From Candidatus Nomurabacteria bacterium (lineage in GTDB: Bacteria; Patescibacteriota; Minisyncoccia; Phycocordibacterales; UBA918): a DNA stretch of 64,000 nucleotides. The position numbers were made by a program, and so were the translations under genes. The notes beneath the pieces were generated by a model. It was given only the letters and a program-made list of their open reading frames with translations. It searched no databases and was not told where the DNA came from. The stretch spans positions 131,216 to 195,215 of the forward strand of contig JACKGH010000001.1 in the NCBI GenBank assembly GCA_020632075.1. The letters run 5' to 3'. Positions within the stretch are counted from its first letter, which is position 1. Each line of letters opens with the position of its first letter. Shown in pieces: positions 2,170-12,112 of the stretch.

Positions 2170-3063
2170 ATGTCGACTTTGTATACGCACCAAGCAAGTA
2201 ATGTTCGGAAGACCTTTGCACTCATGGGGGTGTTTTTGGTGTTTGTGATCGCTATTAGCTATGGTGTGTCCTGGTATCTCAACAGTTCAGCTATCTTGTA
2301 TGTTGGCGTGATCTTTGCGGTTGCTACGAGCATTGGTAGTTACTGGTTCTCAGACAAAATTGTACTGCGTATGACTAATGCGCGCCAAGTCAGTCATGCT
2401 GAAGCACCCGAGTTGTACAATATCGTTGAGAACCTTGCTATCACCGCTGGTCTGCCAATGCCGAAGGTGTATATCGTAGAAGACCCCGCACCGAATGCTT
2501 TTGCGACCGGGCGGGATCCAGAGCATGCTGTTGTGGCTGCTACTACAGGCCTTTTGCAGATACTCGACCGCACTGAGCTTGAGGGCGTGATGGCACACGA
2601 GCTTTCACATGTGGGTAATCGCGATATGTTGGTCATGACCGTCGCGGTTGTTCTCGCTGGCTTTATTGCGATCTTGGCAGACTTTTTCAGTCGTACACTC
2701 ATGTACGGGGGCGGGAACAACCGTGACCGCCACCCCGCCTTTTTGATCATCGGTATTGTCGGTATCATTTTGGCACCGATCGCTGCGAAGCTTATTCAGC
2801 TGGCGATTTCTCGCAAGCGAGAGTATTTGGCAGATGCGACTGGCGCGCTCCTAACTCGCTACCCAGAAGGTCTTGCGTCTGCACTTGAGAAGATCAGCAC
2901 ACATGCGCAGCCAATGCGGAAAGCTTCGCATGCGACTGCGCACCTGTTCATTTCTGATCCATTTAAAGGAGAGCGGGGAGTGATGCAGAAGATCGGCGGA
3001 CTCTTTCAGACACATCCACCAGCAGAAGAGCGTATCGCGCGCCTGCGCGATATGGATGCGTAG
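2170..3063 (+). CDS. htpX: Zinc metalloprotease HtpX (peptidase M48)
   Basis: N-terminal TM helices; HEXXH zinc motif (HELSHVGNRD); the conserved GRDPEHAVVAATTGLL block and C-terminal region are typical of HtpX. Confidence 0.9.
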   Translation: MSTLYTHQASNVRKTFALMGVFLVFVIAISYGVSWYLNSSAILYVGVIFAVATSIGSYWFSDKIVLRMTNARQVSHAEAPELYNIVENLAITAGLPMPKVYIVEDPAPNAFATGRDPEHAVVAATTGLLQILDRTELEGVMAHELSHVGNRDMLVMTVAVVLAGFIAILADFFSRTLMYGGGNNRDRHPAFLIIGIVGIILAPIAAKLIQLAISRKREYLADATGALLTRYPEGLASALEKISTHAQPMRKASHATAHLFISDPFKGERGVMQKIGGLFQTHPPAEERIARLRDMDA

Positions 3064-3095
3064 TGTCGGCTTGGTGTGGTATAAAAGTACCCACT

Positions 3096-3182
3096 GGAGA
3101 GATGGCAGAGTGGTCGATCGCGCATCCTTGGAAAGGATGTATACGTGAAAGCGTATCGGGGGTTCGAATCCCCCTCTCTCCG
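3096..3182 (+). tRNA. tRNA-Ser (anticodon GGA), type II with long variable arm; CCA not encoded
   Basis: Cloverleaf drawn by hand. The acceptor stem GGAGAGA/TCTCTCC is 7/7. The anticodon stem CATCC/GGATG has loop TTGGAAA, giving anticodon GGA. The long variable arm is ATACG-tgaaag-CGTAT. The T arm is GGGGG-TTCGAAT-CCCCC. The discriminator is G73, as expected for Ser. Confidence 0.85.
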
Positions 3183-3190
3183 CAGTTGGT

Positions 3191-3700
3191 ATGAAAAAGC
3201 AAGATGCGCTTAGTATCATCATTACGTTCGTCATGGGTTTTGCGGCCGGTGTCTATTTGTTTTTGTCTCAGGCGGCACCAGTCGTGCATAAGTATGACGT
3301 TCCGACTGAAGAGAAGGTGAGTCAGTTTATGATCGTAGGTGATGTGTATGGTGTTTGTCGTAATACCTGCCCATCGTTCCAGGTACAAGCAGATGGCACG
3401 TATCGTTACCTATACACGCCGAGAGCGGGCGCAGAGCAGATCTTGCGCGAAGGGGAGTTGCCAGCTGAACTTAAGCGCAAACTACGATCAGCGCTCACTG
3501 TATCAGCACTGAACATGCAGTCGCGTGAGATCGAACCAGCCATCTGCAATTCCTATACTGATGGTATCGATATTTTGTACGACATTACCCTTGATGGTAC
3601 GCAGTATTACCTAGATTCGTGTGGTACCGATGTTGATCCAGACGGTGCGGTGTGGAGTACGCTCAGCGATGTATGGGACTACTTTGAGCGTGGAGCATAG
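3191..3700 (+). CDS. Hypothetical exported/membrane-anchored protein (N-terminal TM, Cys-containing ectodomain)
   Basis: The ORF starts 8 nt after the tRNA. It has an N-terminal hydrophobic helix, and no family was recognised. Confidence 0.45.
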   Translation: MKKQDALSIIITFVMGFAAGVYLFLSQAAPVVHKYDVPTEEKVSQFMIVGDVYGVCRNTCPSFQVQADGTYRYLYTPRAGAEQILREGELPAELKRKLRSALTVSALNMQSREIEPAICNSYTDGIDILYDITLDGTQYYLDSCGTDVDPDGAVWSTLSDVWDYFERGA

Positions 3701-6460: not shown

Positions 6461-6573
6461 CAGACTGTGCCTCTTGAAGTGTTGGTTATCTTAGGTCACT
6501 GTAGCACAGTCTATATTTGATACAAGTCATATAGACAAAAGCGTTAAAACAACGTATTCTAGCGGTGTTCGTG

Positions 6574-6604
6574 GGCGGCGGCCCTTTAGGGCCGCCGCCT
6601 TTCT
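6574..6604 (+). promoter_or_regulatory. Terminator-like hairpin (GGCGGCGGCCC-ttta-GGGCCGCCGCC + TTTCT) inside a divergent intergenic region, ~45 nt upstream of typA
   Basis: 11-bp GC stem with a T-rich tail on the plus strand. An imperfect inverted repeat CAGACTGTGC...GCACAGTCTA precedes it at 6462-6515. It is a possible leader/attenuator or small-RNA 3' end. Confidence 0.4.
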
Positions 6605-6645
6605 CAACTATTATCAGGAGCACAGAACGTTTATTTTTAGTATTT

Positions 6646-8430
6646 ATGTCACAAGAGATCCGTAATATCGCCATTATCGCGCACGTAGACCACGGTAAGA
6701 CCACTTTGACTGATGGTCTTATGGAATTCACAGGTTCACGCGACGAGGGTGCGTCAATGGACAGTAACCAGCTCGAAAAGGAGCGTGGTATTACCATTTA
6801 TGCCAAGAACACCTCGGTGACGTACAAAGACACCAAGATCAACATCGTGGACACGCCTGGCCACGCCGACTTTGGTTCAGAGGTAGAGCGGGTGCTCCGC
6901 TCGATCGACTGTGTGCTTCTTGTGGTAGATGCCCAGGAAGGCCCAATGCCACAGACTCGCTTCGTGCTCAAGAAGTCACTCGAACTCGGCCACAAGCCGA
7001 TCGTAGTGATCAACAAGATCGATAAGCCAGCCGCTGATCCAGCACACTGTGCAGACTTAGTGCTCGAATTATTCTGGGAGCTTGGAGCTTCAGAAGAGCA
7101 ATGTGAATTCCCAGTCGTCTACGCGATCGGTCGCGATGGAGTAGCGAAGCGCAACATGGAGGATGAAATGAAGGATCTTTCACCGATCCTCGATGTAGTC
7201 CTCGAACACGTGCCAGCAGCAAAGGTGTACGAAGAAGGGCAAGATCTCCGTGCGCAGGTATTCAACCTTGGCTACGACAACTTCCTCGGCCGACTTGCTA
7301 TTGCTCGTATCTACGAAGGCAAGATCGCGAAAGGTCAGCAGGTCCTTATGAAGCATAAGGGTGAAGAAATGCATAAAGGCAAGGTGGTAAAGCTCTCAAA
7401 CTACGTCGGTATTCACCCGATCGAGCAGGACGAAGCGTTTGCTGGCGACATTGTCATGATCGCTGGACTTGAAGATATTAATATTGGAGACACGATCACC
7501 GACAGTGAAGATGCTGAGCCACTGCCAGCAATCAATGTAGACGAACCAACAGTCGAAATGCAGTTTCTCGTGAACTCATCACCATTTGCGGGTCGCGAAG
7601 GGAAGTATGTGACTTCTCGTCAGATCGGTGAGCGTCTTGAGAAGGAAATGGAGATCAACGTTGGTCTCCAGGTAGAGCCAGCTGGCGGAGATGCATATAA
7701 AGTAAAGGGTCGTGGTGAAATGCACATCGCGATTCTCCTTGAGAATATGCGTCGTGAAGGCTACGAGCTTTCTGTTTCACAGCCACAGGTGATCATCAAG
7801 GAAGTAGACGGTCAGAAACAAGAGCCGTTTGAAGAAGTGACCATCGACATCCCAAGCGAATATCAGGGAGCGGTCATTGAGCGTCTCAGTAATCGTGGCT
7901 TTATCATGCAAAACATGATCCCGCACGAGAACCAAGTGCGTCTCCTCTTCGAAGGCCCAACTCGTGGTCTCTTAGGCTACAAGAACCAATTCATCATCGA
8001 CACACGTGGCGAGGGTATTCTTGCGTCACGCTTTATCGAATTCCGCGAGTACTATGGTGAGATCAAGAAGCGTCAGGTTGGCTCGATGATCTCTATGGAA
8101 AACGGCAAGGCACTCGCCTTCGCGCTCTTCAATCTCCAGGATCGTGGTGAGCTCTATATCGGAGCTGGTACTGAAGTCTACGAAGGTATGGTGCTCGGTA
8201 ACACCTCAAAGGGTGAAGAAATGACCGTGAACCCAACCAAGGGTAAGCAGCTTACCAACATGCGTGCTTCAGGTAGCGACGATGCGGTGACACTCATTCC
8301 ACACCGCCCGCTCTCGATTGAGATTGGTCTTGAGATCATGCAGGAAGACGAGTACCTCGAAGTGTGTCCAGAATCTATTCGCTTGCGAAAGCAGAAGCTG
8401 AAGGAAAGTGATCGAAAGCGAGGAAAGTAG
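6646..8430 (+). CDS. typA: Translational GTPase TypA/BipA
   Basis: G1 motif [10 protein letters not shown]; DTPGHADF; NKID. Overall EF-G-like domain order without domain IV; BipA-type C-terminal domain; 594 aa from ATG 6646. Confidence 0.9.
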
Positions 8431-8506
8431 TTTTCATTTAAAAGAAGTATGTATAAAACTTGACGTTTTGTACGTACTAAGTAGTGTAGTATTAAAACTG
8501 TAAGTT

Positions 8507-8719
8507 TTGTGTATGAGTAAAAAAACTACAACACCAAGTTTTACTAAGCAGCACTATGGCAAGTGGGTCGCTTTAGGTAGTGGCGGTAAGATACTAGCTT
8601 ATTCAAGAGATTTAAAAACGCTCTCGAATAAGGTTGGTAATAAAAAAGTTGTCTACACGAAAGCTCTAGACCCTCGAAAGATTTACGCTTTTAGCAGCTA
8701 TGGCAGTACAAAGATTTAA
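8507..8719 (+). CDS. Small basic protein with GKWVAL motif (DUF5678-like?), in an AT-rich island
   Basis: 70 aa; its 3' end overlaps the next gene by 20 nt. Local GC is far below the window average. Confidence 0.35.
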   Translation: MCMSKKTTTPSFTKQHYGKWVALGSGGKILAYSRDLKTLSNKVGNKKVVYTKALDPRKIYAFSSYGSTKI

Positions 8720-9122
8720 TTACAGTTGCCAGATTGATGGAGCATCGGGTGATGTTTGTTGTGAAAGGCCTGTTATTGAAGTGACTCTTAGTAGCGGGGG
8801 GAAACAGTTTGTCACACATGGGTTGATCGATTCAGGTTGTGTATCGACGATGGCTGATTCAAGTATCGCTGACTTCTTAGGTATTGATTTAACAACTTGC
8901 CCAGAAACAGAAGTGGGAGGAATTTGTGGTGAAGGTACTGGGTATATGAGTGAGATTGATTTCTATGTCGCAGGTGGAGGTAAAATTTTTTCCGGCCCTG
9001 TTACCTTTGTACACAACTTGCCCTTTTCAATCTTGCTTGGACACAGAAACTTCTTTGATAAATTTGATATTTTGTTTAAGAAGTCCAAGGGTTATTTCAC
9101 CATTAATAGAGTAAGGGGGTAA
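8700..9122 (+). CDS. Retropepsin-like (clan AA) aspartic protease domain protein
   Basis: The motif hydrophobic-hydrophobic-D-S-G (GLIDSGCVSTM) matches the D-T/S-G-A catalytic signature. The downstream LLGHRNFFDKFDI resembles the retropepsin flap / ILG-x-DFL region. It sits in an AT-rich island. Confidence 0.4.
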   Translation: MAVQRFNYSCQIDGASGDVCCERPVIEVTLSSGGKQFVTHGLIDSGCVSTMADSSIADFLGIDLTTCPETEVGGICGEGTGYMSEIDFYVAGGGKIFSGPVTFVHNLPFSILLGHRNFFDKFDILFKKSKGYFTINRVRG

Positions 9123-9237
9123 CTCAGAAATTTAGAGTTACTACGGTGAAGCACTTTGCTGCACATTGTCGTATAATTAACAATAGACTTACTCACGAGG
9201 ACTAACTCACGACAACTATGGAAACTTCATATTTTTT

Positions 9238-9612
9238 TTGGCGCAATTCTTTGGTTTGCTGATCGTGATCTTTGCGGTCAGTGCGCTGTTTCGTCCGCAC
9301 TTCTTGCGTGACGTCACCGATGACCTTGCGCAGGCTTCACCGCTGGTGCGACTCTTCTTTAGCATGGTTGCGATCGGTGGCGGTCTCGCGATCGTACTGA
9401 CACACAATGTCTGGGTTGCTGGCTGGCCACTTATTATCACGCTCATTGGCTGGGGCGGGCTCATCAAGGGTGTTTTGGCGCTGGTGCGTCCACAGTCGCT
9501 TATCTTGGCTGCTGATGTGGTCTATGGCTCTGAGCGACGAGCTTGGGTCACACTAGTGCTGGCTGCGCTCTTTGGTGCGTATCTGACTGCGGTTGGGTTT
9601 GGGTGTTTGTAG
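9238..9612 (+). CDS. Hypothetical integral membrane protein (4 TM)
   Basis: TTG start; hydrophobic; followed by a conserved terminator element. Confidence 0.45.
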   Translation: MAQFFGLLIVIFAVSALFRPHFLRDVTDDLAQASPLVRLFFSMVAIGGGLAIVLTHNVWVAGWPLIITLIGWGGLIKGVLALVRPQSLILAADVVYGSERRAWVTLVLAALFGAYLTAVGFGCL

Positions 9613-9627
9613 GAGTGAAGGGGTGCA

Positions 9628-9678
9628 GGCCGCGTGAGCACGAACCTTTCGGAGAAAGGTCGCTCACGCGGCCTTTCT
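9628..9678 (+). terminator. Conserved extended hairpin terminator, family A (GGCCGCGTGAGC-ACGAACCTTTC-gga-GAAAGGTCGC-TCACGCGGCC + T-run), copy 1
   Basis: ~20-bp interrupted stem; near-identical copy at 10206; related copy at 14172. Confidence 0.7.
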
Positions 9679-9741
9679 CTTTACACAAAGGCATTTTGTG
9701 GTATTTTTCACTCAGATTAATCAAGAAGGAGGTATCGTCTG

Positions 9742-10215
9742 ATGACAACCGTCACCCTTAAAGACGTGTGGAATGACTTCTTGCACGAAAATCGAGTACG
9801 AAGACGTCTGCGAAAATTAGCAAAATCATTCGGGATCAGTAAAGGTTATGTGGGGGTGCTTGCGGTGCTTCCATCGCCAACCGGTCTGAGGCGCAGCTGG
9901 TCGGTGGTCATGCTTGGAGACGAAAAGACTACGTCAGCTGAATCGGATCGATGTTTGCATGTAACTTCTTTGATGACTCATGAATGGAATGCTCAAGGAA
10001 CAGAGCGTAGTGAGCTTGTGTTCTGGAACGGAGTATATTTTGCTGGCGTGAAAACTGGGTATGTTGGTGATCAGGGTCAGCGTGGATCTATCATGCTCAC
10101 ATCAGACATTGCTGGTGCCGGGTCGATAGAAATGCTTCAAAGTTGCATTGAGCATTTTACTGAGTTCTGGAACCTTGTGTATCCAAGGCACAAAGAAAGT
10201 ATTTTGGCCGCGTGA
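9742..10215 (+). CDS. Member A of a four-member paralogous family of small cytoplasmic proteins (function unknown)
   Basis: C-terminal GSIEMLQSCIEHF..FW aligns with the SP-x-V/I-EC-[VI]-x-x-L block of the other three members. The last codons ...LAA-stop are encoded by the terminator stem GGCCGCGTGA. Confidence 0.5.
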   Translation: MTTVTLKDVWNDFLHENRVRRRLRKLAKSFGISKGYVGVLAVLPSPTGLRRSWSVVMLGDEKTTSAESDRCLHVTSLMTHEWNAQGTERSELVFWNGVYFAGVKTGYVGDQGQRGSIMLTSDIAGAGSIEMLQSCIEHFTEFWNLVYPRHKESILAA

Positions 10216-10256
10216 GCGCGAACCTTTCGGAGAAAGGTCGCTCACGCGGCCTTTTT
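10206..10256 (+). terminator. Conserved extended hairpin terminator, family A, copy 2 (overlaps the stop codon of 9742..10215)
   Basis: GGCCGCGTGAGCGCGAACCTTTCGGAGAAAGGTCGCTCACGCGGCC + TTTTT. It differs from copy 1 by one base. Confidence 0.75.
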
Positions 10257-10316
10257 GTTGACAGTGTCAATCATACCGATTACCCTACATTTTAGGTAAT
10301 CAGAAGGGGAATACTG

Positions 10317-10832
10317 ATGCAAGAGACAGTACATACTGAAAGTCCAAGTGAGCGGCAGCCACTTCGCTTCTACTGGCGCCAAGGTGTCTCAGACGAGGAT
10401 CTTACCAATGCGGTATATGATCATGTGCTCGCTTTGGTTACATCGTACGGATATGGTCAAGAGGGGGTTGGTGGAGTGAAGATCTACCTGCCTTTCATCC
10501 TTCCAGAAGATGGTAGTCTCGCCAATGCACATCGATGGGTGGTGCCGATCAATACTGATGAGGTGTCGGACCGCGCCATGAATGCCTTCATGGCGCGGTG
10601 GGAAGAGTTGGAACAGATCTGGCGTCAAGATCCTGATATTCTCATCAGAACATCTGGCGACATCATTCATGTTGGCTACTCACTCGACATCGAGGACGGC
10701 AACATCGCTTCGCCTGCGGTGGAATGTATCTTATGCCTGCCAGGCTTCGATCTGGAAGAGTTGTTTGAAGATTTCCCTGACGAGCTCGTTGAACTCTGGG
10801 ATAAAGGAGAATTCTCTCGTGTGTTCTACTGA
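10317..10832 (+). CDS. Paralogous family member B
   Basis: Shares DIIHVGYSLDIEDGNIASPAVECILCLPGF with C (DVYHVAKRVGIETYGLASPTVECVALLRDPG) and D (DVYYVAERIGEVQKVGVMPSIECVMWLQGP). The N-terminal halves also align (FYWRQ / LGWRM...VPF...W). Confidence 0.6.
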   Translation: MQETVHTESPSERQPLRFYWRQGVSDEDLTNAVYDHVLALVTSYGYGQEGVGGVKIYLPFILPEDGSLANAHRWVVPINTDEVSDRAMNAFMARWEELEQIWRQDPDILIRTSGDIIHVGYSLDIEDGNIASPAVECILCLPGFDLEELFEDFPDELVELWDKGEFSRVFY

Positions 10833-10839
10833 CGGTCGA

Positions 10840-10865
10840 GGGCGCTTGGTACAAGCGCCCTTTTT
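10840..10865 (+). terminator. Rho-independent terminator GGGCGCTTG-gta-CAAGCGCCC + TTTTT
   Basis: 9-bp stem and T-run directly after the stop of member B. Confidence 0.7.
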
Positions 10866-10904
10866 GTTGCTACAATATTCACATTAGCAATTCACTCAAT
10901 TTGT

Positions 10905-11294
10905 ATGGAAGAACTACTTAGTAATCTTGATGTCGTGACTGTTCTAGTGTCATTTGTATTGGCATTCTTACTCGGTTGGTTGTGGTATTCGCCAAAGATG
11001 TTCCTTAAGCCGTGGGCAGCAGGACACGGCATAGATACGACGGGACCAAAGACTGGCATACTGAAACCAATGGTGGCACAAGCTGCCGGCACCCTCTTGC
11101 TAGCAGTCATTACCAACATGGCTGCTCAAGATGGACATGTAGGGCACGCAGTAATAGTGGCAGTGACAGTTGCGTTTTTCATCATGTCGAGCAACCTCTA
11201 CAAGAATCCAAAGGCATGCGTGCCTGCACGTATAGAAGCGGGGTACATATTGGCCATGGTCGCGGTTATGGTGGCTGTCAATATGGTGCTGTAG
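10905..11294 (+). CDS. DUF1761-like small membrane protein
   Basis: LGWLWYSPKMFLKPW matches the G-x-LWYSP-x-lFGK-x-W signature. 4 TM. Confidence 0.5.
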   Translation: MEELLSNLDVVTVLVSFVLAFLLGWLWYSPKMFLKPWAAGHGIDTTGPKTGILKPMVAQAAGTLLLAVITNMAAQDGHVGHAVIVAVTVAFFIMSSNLYKNPKACVPARIEAGYILAMVAVMVAVNMVL

Positions 11295-11315
11295 TTTTTA
11301 ACCATTTAGTAAAAT

Positions 11316-11504
11316 ATGAAAACTATTGCGTGTTTAGATTGCAGTCAGCAATTCAGTGGTGAAACTCCTGAAGAAGTAATGCAGGCTATGATGCCACACT
11401 ACATGGTGGACCATAAGGAAGTCATGGAAGGTGGAAATGAGGAAAAGAAGAAAGAATGGTTTGCTGAATTTCAACGACGCTGGAATGTAGCAGAGAATAG
11501 TTAG
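11316..11504 (+). CDS. DUF1059-like small protein
   Basis: MKTIACLDCSQQFSGETPEEVMQAMMPHYMVDH resembles DUF1059 (MK-x-x-C-x-D-x-G-x-x-C-x-F-x-x-x-x-ETEEE-x-x-x-x-x-x-x-H). Confidence 0.5.
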   Translation: MKTIACLDCSQQFSGETPEEVMQAMMPHYMVDHKEVMEGGNEEKKKEWFAEFQRRWNVAENS

Positions 11505-11599
11505 CAGAATTGCAAAAAGCCTAATGGACACACTAGGCTTCTTGTTGACTCTGTGCACTACATGTTGTATTGTCCAATGAGCAGAAGGGAGGAACGTAC

Positions 11600-12112
11600 A
11601 TGCTTCAAAGAGGGGAATTGGCGCTTGGTTGGAGAATGACCAAGCCAGTCGAAGTGTTTCAAGATGACATGCGTGAGATCATGAAAGCAATGCTGCTCTC
11701 GTCGGACTACATCGGTGATGGGCTTCTGGTCATGCGTATTCGTGTGCCGTTCGTCTACAGGCACAGCATGCCTGAATACAAAGACTTTCCACTGATGGCG
11801 CCAATTGGCGACATTCGCTTGTCGCAAGAGCAAGTTGGGCGCATGAATAAGACCTGGGTCGATCTGTACTACAGGTGGATCAGTGACAATGATGGAGTGC
11901 ATACTCAGATTCGTAGTGAGGGTGACGTGTATCATGTTGCCAAGCGTGTCGGGATCGAGACGTACGGTCTAGCATCACCGACGGTCGAGTGCGTCGCGCT
12001 CTTGCGTGATCCGGGTTGTCCCTTCATGGAACTGTGCGAAGGAGCACTCGACATCTTTTGGGAAGAGTCTGGGCTGATCGCGTTTGGTCCGACTATCGAA
12101 GACAGCAAATAG
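11600..12112 (+). CDS. Paralogous family member C
   Basis: ATG 11600 has a GGGAGG RBS. The conserved SPTVECVALLRDPGCP block is shown under member B. Confidence 0.6.
   Translation: MLQRGELALGWRMTKPVEVFQDDMREIMKAMLLSSDYIGDGLLVMRIRVPFVYRHSMPEYKDFPLMAPIGDIRLSQEQVGRMNKTWVDLYYRWISDNDGVHTQIRSEGDVYHVAKRVGIETYGLASPTVECVALLRDPGCPFMELCEGALDIFWEESGLIAFGPTIEDSK

What the first reader, a model, noticed from the sequence alone, without database searches (positions are those of the whole stretch)
8431..9237. AT-rich islet carrying an overlapping two-gene module: a small GKWVAL-motif protein and a retropepsin-like aspartic protease
GC drops sharply here, to roughly 37% against ~50% in the flanks. The 8507..8719 ORF overlaps 8700..9122 by 20 nt. 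The second product has a D-S-G active-site-like motif (GLIDSGCVSTM) and a C-terminal LLGHRNFFDKFDI, consistent with a clan-AA (retropepsin-like) protease. Standalone bacterial retropepsin-like proteases paired with a small partner protein are poorly characterised and could be a toxin/antitoxin-like or phage-derived module. Its compositional contrast with the flanking typA gene suggests horizontal acquisition.
Basis: partly seen in the sequence, partly recalled or inferred. Interest (0 to 1): 0.6.

Follow-up and report, generated by a model that had tools for sequence, protein, structure and literature searches.

The report
Small-protein plus retropepsin-like protease cassette
The AT-rich islet after typA in this Candidatus Kaiserbacteria genome is a real two-gene cassette, a small DUF5678-type protein followed by an HIV-protease-like aspartic protease, that recurs as a fixed pair across candidate-phyla-radiation bacteria, sits in a different place in each genome, and has no known function.

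Summary
Window 8431-9237 is 37.8% GC against a 47.8% window mean, the lowest 807-nt stretch in all 64 kb. It carries two + strand ORFs that overlap by 20 nt.

The 140-aa product is a retropepsin-like (clan AA) aspartic protease:
- Its own Pfam hits are sub-threshold, but it belongs to a family of 480 cluster representatives with an invariant D-S-G and LLG.
- 77 of 83 relatives hit Asp_protease_2, and the family profile hits DDI1 protease domains.
- An AF2 model (pLDDT 92) matches Rickettsia APRc and HIV-1 protease.

The 68-aa product is a basic DUF5678-family protein.

The pair is a fixed unit. All 10 looked-up homologue contexts carry the partner, as do 75 of 78 testable metagenome loci. The partner lies immediately upstream on the same strand, usually with a 4-nt or 1-nt overlap. 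The three exceptions are decayed protease fragments. Flanks differ everywhere, and no third gene is conserved. None of 80 related typA loci carries the pair. Module GC is below its flanks in 83% of loci.

No phage or plasmid sequence match was found, and I found no paper on the pair.

My best reading, which is inferred, is a mobile toxin-antitoxin-like cassette in which the small protein restrains the protease, possibly through its conserved C-terminal Tyr-x-Pro/Phe tail.

The parts
8431..8512 (+). AT-rich intergenic leader (25.6% GC) between the typA stop and the small gene. It contains the 8-bp palindrome GTACGTAC (8470-8477) and the inverted repeat AAAACT-gta-AGTTTT (8493-8507). Presumed promoter or operator region (inferred).
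   Evidence: GC. Repeats. No sigma-70 consensus promoter or intrinsic terminator was found. Inverted repeats upstream of the family's small genes are only marginally enriched (5.73 against 5.11 nt, p=0.02).
8513..8719 (+). Gene for a 68-aa basic (pI 10.3) DUF5678-family small protein (NCBI KC877_01885). An alternative TTG start lies at 8507. Conserved core H14, W18-V19-A20, L34. C-terminal Y58-A59-F60 at nt 8684-8692.
   Evidence: Pfam DUF5678 E 3e-4, 21.0 bits against a cutoff of 23.2. 36 of 39 orthologous partners hit DUF5678, best 3.8e-8. Conservation. pI.
8700..8719 (+). 20-nt overlap of the two reading frames (translational coupling inferred).
   Evidence: In relatives the junction is a 4-nt overlap (22 of 60), a 1-nt overlap (11 of 60) or a gap of at most 14 nt.
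8700..9122 (+). Gene for a 140-aa acidic (pI 5.2) standalone retropepsin-like (clan AA) aspartic protease (NCBI KC877_01880). No signal peptide or transmembrane segment is evident in the sequence.
   Evidence: 480 representatives at E<=1e-3. Invariant D44/G46/G114. 77 of 83 relatives hit Asp_protease_2. Profile against PDB hits DDI1 at E 5e-6. AF2 pLDDT 91.9. Foldseek hits APRc 5c9f and HIV-1 protease.
8829..8840 (+). Codons for the catalytic motif D44-S45-G46-C47 (the D-S-G-C variant of the retropepsin D-[ST]-G-A).
   Evidence: Read from the sequence. D44 and G46 are invariant and S45 is at least 90% conserved in 83 relatives. D/S/G are invariant in a second set of 80.
9033..9044 (+). Codons for L112-L113-G114-H115, the second retropepsin signature (hydrophobic-hydrophobic-Gly, equivalent to I-I-G-R of retroviral proteases).
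   Evidence: G114 is invariant and L113 is at least 90% conserved. It aligns with the LLG of DDI1 in the profile alignment.
9123..9237 (+). AT-rich (35.7% GC) downstream spacer before the next gene (9238..9612, a small hydrophobic protein). It contains a 14-nt tandem duplication at 9186-9213.
   Evidence: No terminator was found by the consensus scan.

Best explanation
The islet is a self-contained, horizontally mobile bicistronic cassette.

Shown:
- Gene 1 encodes a small basic DUF5678-family protein.
- Gene 2, which overlaps gene 1, encodes a standalone retropepsin-like aspartic protease with a single D-S-G per chain.
- The two genes are inherited as a unit across candidate-phyla-radiation bacteria and land in unrelated genomic contexts.

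Inferred:
- The protease is cytosolic and must homodimerise to form an active site, as all retropepsins do.
- The two genes are translationally coupled, and the proteins bind each other.
- The small protein keeps the protease in check, like a type II antitoxin restraining its toxin. It may do this by laying its conserved C-terminal [Y/F]-x-[P/F] tail into the substrate cleft as a pseudo-substrate.
- Loss or degradation of the small protein would release the protease onto cellular or invader proteins, causing growth arrest, plasmid-addiction-like stabilisation or abortive defence.

Confidence by layer:
- About 0.9 that it is a DUF5678 plus retropepsin-like accessory module.
- About 0.75 that it was acquired horizontally.
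- About 0.4 that it works as a toxin-antitoxin-like pair in which the partner inhibits the protease.
For: Identity of the protease:
- Family of 480 representatives.
- D44/G46/G114 invariant.
- Asp_protease_2 in 77 of 83 relatives and gag-asp_proteas in 74 of 83.
- DDI1, Ty3, EIAV and FIV proteases hit by the family profile.
- AF2 pLDDT 91.9 and Foldseek hits to APRc and HIV-1 protease at E 8e-6 to 1e-4.
- NCBI names relatives 'retropepsin-like aspartic protease'.

Identity of the partner: DUF5678 in 36 of 39 partners.

Fixed pairing:
- All 10 looked-up homologue contexts carry the partner, one of them with two copies and one with an uncalled partner ORF.
- 75 of 78 testable metagenome loci carry it. 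The 3 exceptions are truncated remnants that lack D-S-G.
- Junctions are 4-nt or 1-nt overlaps or tiny gaps.
- Distance matrices of the two proteins correlate, r=0.78, Mantel p<=0.001.

Autonomy and mobility:
- 110 different Pfam families among 147 neighbouring ORFs, none seen more than twice.
- 0 of 80 related typA loci carry the pair.
- Module GC is below its flanks in 83% of 52 loci, mean -4.4 points, p=3e-7.
- In the window it is the lowest-GC stretch and the lowest-GC3 gene.
- Two copies occur in one locus (L020).

TA or defence flavour:
- ParE, HicAB, PIN, HepT-MNT and Gp49/HigB genes sit beside some copies.
- The protease family matches the PADLOC candidate-defence models PDC-M52B (63 of 83) and PDC-M08B (57 of 83).

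Tail hypothesis:
- [Y/F]-x-P is conserved 3 residues from the C-terminus in most partners.
- All 5 partners of the D-S-G-C protease clade have Y-[A/S]-F, whereas D-S-G-A proteases pair with [Y/F]-x-P.
Against: - No experiment exists, and I found no paper on the pair.
- The small protein has no recognisable DNA-binding domain. Its fold could not be modelled (pLDDT 58). Similarity to HicB-type antitoxins is not significant (hhalign probability 2.4%).
- The partners match no PADLOC model, so the module is not PDC-M52 or PDC-M08 as defined.
- Neighbours are mostly housekeeping genes, not defence islands.
- The small protein is basic and the protease acidic, the reverse of many type II pairs.
- The A-to-C and P-to-F co-variation is probably a single evolutionary event.
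- Low GC may partly reflect the Lys/Asn/Ile-rich composition rather than foreign origin.
- No flanking direct repeats, integrase or tRNA junction marks an insertion, and no clean empty site was found.
Confidence: 0.4

Rival explanations
1. Protease plus dedicated substrate. The small DUF5678 protein is a precursor that the co-translated protease cleaves at or near the conserved [Y/F]-x-P site (retropepsins favour aromatic-Pro junctions). Cleavage would release or activate a small basic protein that carries the real function.
For: The C-terminal [Y/F]-x-P motif is nearly universal (56 of 59 Y, 56 of 59 P). The pairing is strict and co-evolving. The motif and the residue after the catalytic D-S-G change together between clades.
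Against: Only 0-9 residues, typically 3 and variable, follow the motif. Four partners end right at it, so there is little to release. The motif is Y-x-P, not Y-P. The mobile, context-free distribution and the decayed copies fit a selfish module better than a maturation pathway.
Confidence: 0.2
2. Housekeeping proteostasis or regulatory protease with an adaptor. A DDI1-like cytosolic aspartic protease would use the DUF5678 protein as a substrate-recruiting or activating subunit, serving protein quality control in reduced candidate-phyla-radiation (CPR) genomes.
For: The best sequence-profile matches are DDI1 protease domains. Copies sit next to translation and chaperone genes: typA in the window, fusA in L020, grpE-dnaK-dnaJ in L018, and groEL, clpP and tRNA synthetases elsewhere. 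The catalytic residues are under strong conservation.
Against: The pair is absent from the same position in all 80 related genomes examined, and its location varies everywhere. Composition is atypical. There are multiple copies and pseudogenised remnants. CPR genomes are dense in translation genes, so such neighbours are expected by chance.
Confidence: 0.15
3. Remnant of a phage or prophage. The protease would be a phage maturation or accessory protease left behind after prophage decay.
For: The best structural matches among viral proteins are standalone 127-142-aa aspartic proteases of uncultured siphoviruses and marine phages (TM 0.60-0.72, 16-19% identity). Composition is AT-rich.
Against: There is no tblastn hit in 50,697 phage genomes or 72,556 plasmids, no PHROG hit, and no IMG/VR locus for the main clade. 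No phage genes occur in the flanks here or in the relatives. The cassette is always just two genes.
Confidence: 0.05

Closest known systems
APRc (RC1339) of Rickettsia conorii, the 'ApRick' retropepsin-like protease (PDB 5c9b/5c9d/5c9f; PMC4140852)
   Same: A bacterial single-domain retropepsin fold with one D-[ST]-G per chain. It is the best Foldseek match to the model (E 8e-6, TM 0.64).
   Different: By my knowledge and the paper's abstract, APRc is membrane-embedded and surface-associated with autoprocessing. Sequence identity is only 14-20%. No DUF5678 partner is described for it. The window protein has no evident membrane or signal segment.
DDI1/DDI2 retroviral-protease-like (RVP) domain (PDB 3s8i, 4rgh, 4z2z, 2i1a)
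   Same: It is the best sequence-profile match (E 5e-6 to 2e-5). The alignment covers D-S-G-A, the flap region and LLG.
   Different: DDI1 is a eukaryotic multidomain protein with ubiquitin-like and ubiquitin-associated domains, acting in ubiquitin-dependent proteolysis. The protein here is a 140-aa standalone enzyme with a separately encoded small partner.
NCBIfam TIGR03698 (clan_AA_DTGF) and TIGR02281 (clan_AA_DTGA) prokaryotic clan AA proteases; Pfam Asp_protease_2 and gag-asp_proteas
   Same: Same superfamily. 19 of 83 and 13 of 83 relatives hit the two TIGRFAMs, and 77 of 83 hit Asp_protease_2.
   Different: The window protein hits neither TIGRFAM at E<=1 and is below the Pfam gathering scores. 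It has D-S-G-C instead of D-T-G-F or D-T-G-A.
Type II toxin-antitoxin modules (for example HicAB and ParDE, which lie beside some copies)
   Same: A small upstream gene overlaps a larger downstream gene. The cassette is autonomous, scattered and strain-variable in location, atypical in GC, and occurs as multiple and decayed copies.
   Different: I know of no established TA toxin that is an aspartic protease. The partner lacks a recognised DNA-binding domain. Neither toxicity nor neutralisation has been tested.
PADLOC-DB v2 candidate defence systems PDC-M52 and PDC-M08 (B components)
   Same: The protease family matches the B-component HMMs (63 of 83 and 57 of 83 relatives, best E about 1e-10). 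The window protein matches weakly (E 0.002-0.004).
   Different: The DUF5678 partners match no PADLOC model, so the partner gene differs or is too divergent. These candidates are themselves uncharacterised, and I found no paper on them.
Secreted retropepsin-like Rlo peptidases of Pseudomonas aeruginosa (PMC11957051)
   Same: Bacterial retropepsin-like aspartic proteases with a physiological role in stress tolerance.
   Different: They are secreted enzymes according to that paper's title and abstract, whereas the one here is apparently cytosolic and partner-linked. Sequence relatedness was not tested here.

Membership tests
Clan AA retropepsin-like aspartic proteases (Pfam Asp_protease_2 PF13650 / gag-asp_proteas PF13975) | Catalytic Asp in a hydrophobic-hydrophobic-D-[S/T]-G-[A/small] motif, one per roughly 100-140-aa chain | tested here: met
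   L42-I43-D44-S45-G46-C47. D44 and G46 are invariant and S45 is at least 90% conserved in 83 relatives. D/S/G are invariant in 80 others.
Clan AA retropepsin-like aspartic proteases (Pfam Asp_protease_2 PF13650 / gag-asp_proteas PF13975) | Second signature hydrophobic-hydrophobic-Gly near the C-terminus (I-I-G-R/L-L-G type) | tested here: met
   L112-L113-G114-H115. G114 is invariant, and the motif aligns to the LLG of DDI1.
Clan AA retropepsin-like aspartic proteases (Pfam Asp_protease_2 PF13650 / gag-asp_proteas PF13975) | Score at or above the Pfam gathering threshold | tested here: not met
   The window protein scores 14.5 bits against 24.3 for PF13650 and 13.6 against 28.2 for PF13975. 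At family level, 77 of 83 and 74 of 83 relatives match at E<=0.01. Membership therefore rests on transitive homology and on fold.
Clan AA retropepsin-like aspartic proteases (Pfam Asp_protease_2 PF13650 / gag-asp_proteas PF13975) | Retropepsin beta-barrel fold | tested here: met
   AF2 model with pLDDT 91.9 and pTM 0.84. There are 112 PDB matches at E<=1e-3. All 50 matches listed are APRc and HIV-1 protease.
Clan AA retropepsin-like aspartic proteases (Pfam Asp_protease_2 PF13650 / gag-asp_proteas PF13975) | Homodimerisation and pepstatin-type-sensitive peptidase activity | not testable with these tools
   Needs biochemistry or multimer modelling.
DUF5678 (Pfam PF18929) | Match to the family HMM at the gathering threshold | tested here: inconclusive
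   The window protein has E 3e-4 and 21.0 bits against a cutoff of 23.2. 36 of 39 orthologous partners match at E<=1, best 3.8e-8. The matched region covers the H-x-G-K-W-V-A core.
NCBIfam TIGR03698 clan_AA_DTGF | HMM match and D-T-G-F active-site variant | tested here: not met
   The window protein has no hit at E<=1. The motif is D-S-G-C. Only 19 of 83 relatives hit at E<=0.01.
Type II toxin-antitoxin system | Two adjacent co-oriented small genes, tightly spaced or overlapping, conserved as a pair | tested here: met
   20-nt overlap here. 75 of 78 testable loci are paired.
Type II toxin-antitoxin system | Accessory, horizontally mobile distribution (variable context, patchy presence) | tested here: met
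   0 of 80 related typA loci carry it. Neighbours span 110 families with none recurrent. There is a GC deficit relative to flanks.
Type II toxin-antitoxin system | Antitoxin with a DNA-binding domain that autoregulates the operon | tested here: inconclusive
   No DNA-binding Pfam domain was found. The protein is basic (pI about 9.7-10.3). Upstream inverted repeats are only marginally enriched (p=0.02). The HicB-like comparison gave a probability of 2.4%.
Type II toxin-antitoxin system | Toxin arrests growth and the cognate antitoxin neutralises it by direct binding | not testable with these tools
   Requires expression and toxicity assays.
PADLOC candidate systems PDC-M52 / PDC-M08 | Both component HMMs (A and B) present in the locus | tested here: not met
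   B is matched weakly by the window protein (E 0.0019 and 0.0041) and well by relatives. No A-component or other PADLOC model is matched by 8 partners at E<=1.

The most novel reading that the evidence does not exclude
A previously undescribed class of toxin-antitoxin or abortive-defence module, widespread in candidate-phyla-radiation bacteria. Its effector would be a cytosolic retropepsin-like aspartic protease. It would be held inactive by a DUF5678 antitoxin whose C-terminal Tyr-x-Pro/Phe tail plugs the substrate cleft. That would be a bacterial counterpart of pseudo-substrate inhibition of HIV-type proteases.
Probability: 0.3. Interest if true: 0.7.

Novelty: new variant of a known kind. 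Interest (0 to 1): 0.45.

Why it matters
Standalone prokaryotic retropepsin-like proteases are numerous but almost none has a known role, and DUF5678 is a pure 'unknown function' family. This work shows that in candidate-phyla-radiation bacteria the two form an obligate, mobile two-gene unit, and it gives both families a concrete, testable hypothesis: protease plus cognate inhibitor.

If the toxin-antitoxin reading holds, it would add aspartic proteolysis to the repertoire of toxin or defence effectors. It would also provide a natural protein inhibitor of a retropepsin, and it would explain why such cassettes persist in some of the smallest bacterial genomes.

If it does not hold, the module is still a clean entry point into the ancestry of the retroviral and DDI1 protease fold.

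Tried and rejected
- The word-indexed homologue searches found only the query itself for both proteins. The exhaustive HMMER search was needed to find relatives.
- PHROGs gave no hit. tblastn against phages and plasmids gave no hit. An IMG/VR scan with the main-clade alignment gave none. Phage origin is therefore not supported by sequence.
- Rfam found nothing in the islet, only tRNA-Ser at 3096. No consensus promoter or terminator was found.
- No flanking direct repeats mark an insertion. The only repeats are short, chance-size matches. The tRNA is 5 kb away.
- I searched for an empty site in relatives. The region downstream of typA is not syntenic even among the closest genomes, so no before-and-after comparison was possible.
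- Contigs L006 and L008 appeared to give alternative upstream contexts. They are chimeric assembly joins at short shared k-mers.
- Longer family members (P0017, P0131, P0170 and others) were checked for DUF5678-protease fusions. Their extensions look like mis-called starts, not fusions.
- PDB hits of the small-protein profile to WD40 repeats are artefacts of summed weak matches to the 'VAFSPDG' repeat.
- A HicB-like fold for the partner was a lead from sub-threshold DUF1902 and HicB hits. hhalign gave the expected register but a probability of only 2.4%, so this is inconclusive.
- The search for related loci with the broad alignments failed for lack of conserved stretches.
- The census of neighbours found no conserved third gene and no clear defence-island enrichment.
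Full report
**1. Source and observation**

The window comes from a Candidatus Kaiserbacteria metagenome-assembled genome (candidate phyla radiation, CPR). The two products are identical to NCBI entries KC877_01880 (140 aa) and KC877_01885 (68 aa), both annotated as hypothetical.

The composition claim holds:
- The interval 8431-9237 is 37.8% GC against 47.8% for the window. It is the lowest of all 807-nt windows, about 4.4 sd below the mean.
- The profile drops from about 52% to 36-40% and recovers to 54-57%.
- Among the 41 ORFs of at least 100 aa, the protease gene has the lowest GC and the lowest GC3.

The two + strand ORFs overlap by 20 nt:
- The small gene most likely starts at ATG 8513.
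- The protease start at 8700 matches the N-termini of its homologues.

The gene upstream is typA (TIGR01394).

**2. The 140-aa protein is a retropepsin-like aspartic protease**

On its own it is only marginal in Pfam: Asp_protease_2 at E 0.059 and gag-asp_proteas at E 0.1, both far below gathering. It has no NCBIfam hit. Word-indexed searching found only the protein itself.

The evidence for the assignment is at family level:
- An exhaustive HMMER search found 480 cluster representatives at E<=1e-3 and 73 at E<=1e-10. Nearly all are standalone proteins of 130-150 aa.
- In an 83-sequence alignment the invariant columns are D44, G46 and G114. S45, A57, G74, L113 and F119 are at least 90% conserved. 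These are the retropepsin D-S-G, flap Gly and L-L-G signatures.
- 77 of 83 members hit Asp_protease_2, 74 hit gag-asp_proteas and 20 hit RVP.
- 19 of 83 hit TIGR03698 and 13 hit TIGR02281.
- The family profile hits DDI1 and DDI2 protease domains (E 5e-6 to 2e-5), then the Ty3, EIAV and FIV proteases.
- NCBI names some relatives 'retropepsin-like aspartic protease' in Candidatus Taylorbacteria, Paceibacterota and Parcubacteria.
- An AlphaFold2 model built on an 80-sequence alignment is confident (pLDDT 91.9, pTM 0.84). Its best PDB matches are Rickettsia APRc (5c9f, E 8e-6, TM 0.64) and many HIV-1 protease entries.

The sequence shows no signal peptide or membrane segment (my reading of it), so the enzyme is probably cytosolic. 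With one D-S-G per chain it must dimerise to be active. That follows from established retropepsin biochemistry and was not tested here.

**3. The 68-aa protein is a DUF5678-family member**

The window copy scores just under the Pfam cutoff (21.0 against 23.2 bits, E 3e-4). The orthologous partners are clearer: 7 of 8 match DUF5678, then 36 of 39 with a best E of 3.8e-8.

- The family core is L-x-x-L-L-K-x-H-x-N-K-W-V-A-L-S-x-D-Y-K-K-V-L-A-x-G-x-x-L. W18 is invariant and V19, A20 and L34 nearly so.
- Near the C-terminus there is a conserved Y58 (56 of 59) followed by x-P (56 of 59). It is usually 3 residues from the end.
- The proteins are basic, with median pI 9.7 and 10.3 in the window. The proteases are neutral to acidic, with median pI 6.8 and 5.2 in the window.
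- The fold is unresolved.
- A HicB-like resemblance is not significant (hhalign probability 2.4%).

**4. The two genes form an obligate, autonomous cassette**

Every homologue context I looked up has a 62-78-aa DUF5678-like gene immediately upstream on the same strand. These contexts are L011, an ERZ27296333 contig, L013, L014, L018, L020 (two copies), L024, L030, L032 (partner uncalled but present) and L194.

In 80 metagenome loci retrieved with a main-clade alignment, I found 81 protease matches:
- 75 have the partner.
- 3 lie at contig ends.
- 3 are N-terminally truncated remnants without D-S-G or a partner.

Further points:
- Of 60 resolved junctions, 22 overlap by 4 nt, 11 by 1 nt, and the rest have gaps of at most 14 nt.
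- The pairwise-distance matrices of the two proteins correlate (r=0.78, Mantel p<=0.001).
- There is no conserved third gene. 147 neighbouring ORFs hit 110 different Pfam families, none more than twice, and most are housekeeping.
- Some copies sit beside ParE, HicAB, PIN, HepT-MNT or Gp49/HigB genes.

**5. The cassette is accessory and compositionally foreign**

A scan of one genome per GTDB species with the TypA C-terminus returned 80 loci, including relatives at 76-86% identity. None has the protease or the partner within 5 kb of typA.

The region downstream of typA is not syntenic among the closest relatives. The module is therefore non-core, but no clean empty site could be shown.

Across 52 loci the module is on average 4.4 GC points below its flanks, lower in 83% of cases (p=3e-7). 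The AT-rich islet is thus a property of the family.

The window has a single copy. There are no flanking direct repeats, integrase or adjacent tRNA. Exact copies of the window locus occur in several metagenomes. Two apparent alternative contexts are assembly chimeras.

**6. Mechanism**

The following are shown:
- the identities of the two proteins;
- their strict pairing and overlap;
- their co-inheritance;
- the context-free distribution;
- the conservation of the catalytic residues.

The rest is inferred. I think the most likely reading is a toxin-antitoxin-like cassette in which the co-translated small protein binds and restrains the protease.

One specific, testable idea is that the conserved C-terminal [Y/F]-x-[P/F] tail occupies the substrate cleft. 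Retropepsins favour aromatic and Pro residues around the scissile bond (general knowledge). The residue after D-S-G, which lines the substrate pockets in HIV-1 protease (general knowledge), co-varies with the tail:
- All five D-S-G-C proteases (window, L011, L012, L193, L194) pair with Y-[A/S]-F.
- D-S-G-A proteases pair with [Y/F]-x-P.

This is probably a single evolutionary event, so it counts only as a hint.

The protease family also matches the PADLOC candidate-defence components PDC-M52B and PDC-M08B. The partners match no PADLOC model, so the cassette is not a member of those candidates as defined.

Against the TA reading:
- The partner has no recognisable DNA-binding domain.
- Upstream inverted repeats are only marginally enriched (p=0.02).
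- The charge pattern is the reverse of many type II pairs.
- The neighbours are mostly housekeeping genes.
- There are no experimental data.

Rivals:
- A protease plus a dedicated substrate or precursor.
- A DDI1-like proteostasis enzyme with an adaptor.
- A phage remnant. This is unsupported by sequence, although standalone phage aspartic proteases are structurally similar.

**7. Comparison with known systems, and novelty**

The protease belongs to a known superfamily (clan AA) and the partner to a catalogued DUF, so neither protein is new in kind.

Seven full-text searches found no description of the DUF5678 plus retropepsin pairing, and no retropepsin-like protease described as a TA or defence effector. 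That library is incomplete.

The characterised bacterial retropepsin-likes are surface, secreted or membrane enzymes without such a partner: APRc (PMC4140852), the Pseudomonas Rlo enzymes (PMC11957051), and PerP and SpoIIGA from my own knowledge.

I rate this a new variant of a known kind and of moderate interest. It is a solid, widespread and uncharacterised module with a clear experimental path, but its function is still inferred.

Noticed in passing
window 9628-9676 and 10206-10254: Two near-identical (97-98%) copies of a roughly 49-nt GC-rich hairpin: GGCCGCGTGAGC...GAACCTTTCGGAGAAAGGTC...GCTCACGCGGCC plus a T-rich tail. Each lies at the 3' end of a + strand gene (ending 9612 and 10215). 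It looks like a repeated terminator-like element.
   Followed up: partly
window 40097-63439 (+): My ORF scan lists a single open reading frame of about 23.3 kb (about 7,780 aa) with low GC3 (0.399). It is a giant gene of the kind seen in candidate-phyla-radiation (CPR) genomes. It was not analysed.
   Followed up: no
L020 2080-2716 (also L021-L023, and probably L156): A second, divergent copy of the DUF5678 plus protease pair (71 aa + 138 aa) lies about 1 kb upstream of the first. It sits directly after fusA (EF-G), echoing the window's position directly after typA. This may be coincidence in translation-gene-dense genomes.
   Followed up: partly
window 8700-9122; protease residues C10, C21, C47 (and C67): The window's sub-clade (D-S-G-C) has conserved cysteines at positions 10, 21 and 47 in most of its 13 closest members, and often at 67. 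The main D-S-G-A clade lacks them. This may be a clade-specific metal or redox site next to the active site. Distances in the model could not be inspected.
   Followed up: no
L136, L139, L141 (about 3001-3273): Decayed copies. Only the C-terminal roughly 66-88 residues of the protease survive (no D-S-G), and there is no partner gene. In L136 the remnant sits next to a 581-aa gene.
   Followed up: partly
L006 1-108 and L008 1-176: Metagenome contigs that carry the exact module but diverge from the window upstream of 8342 and 8388. The joins fall at short shared k-mers, and one flank is very GC-rich. They are most likely chimeric assemblies rather than alternative insertion contexts.
   Followed up: yes
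window 6565-8430: The mechanical typA ORF starts at GTG 6565, but the TypA model aligns from residue 32. Gene calls on other contigs give 594 aa, so the real start is probably the ATG at 6649, protein MSQEIRN....
   Followed up: partly
window 9238-12112: The genes downstream of the islet have no Pfam assignment and almost no homologues next to typA in related genomes. They include the ORFs at 9238-9612, 9742-10215 and 10317-10832. Only the 10905-11294 ORF has a counterpart, about 740 nt after typA in L035. The whole stretch after typA seems to be a variable region.
   Followed up: partly
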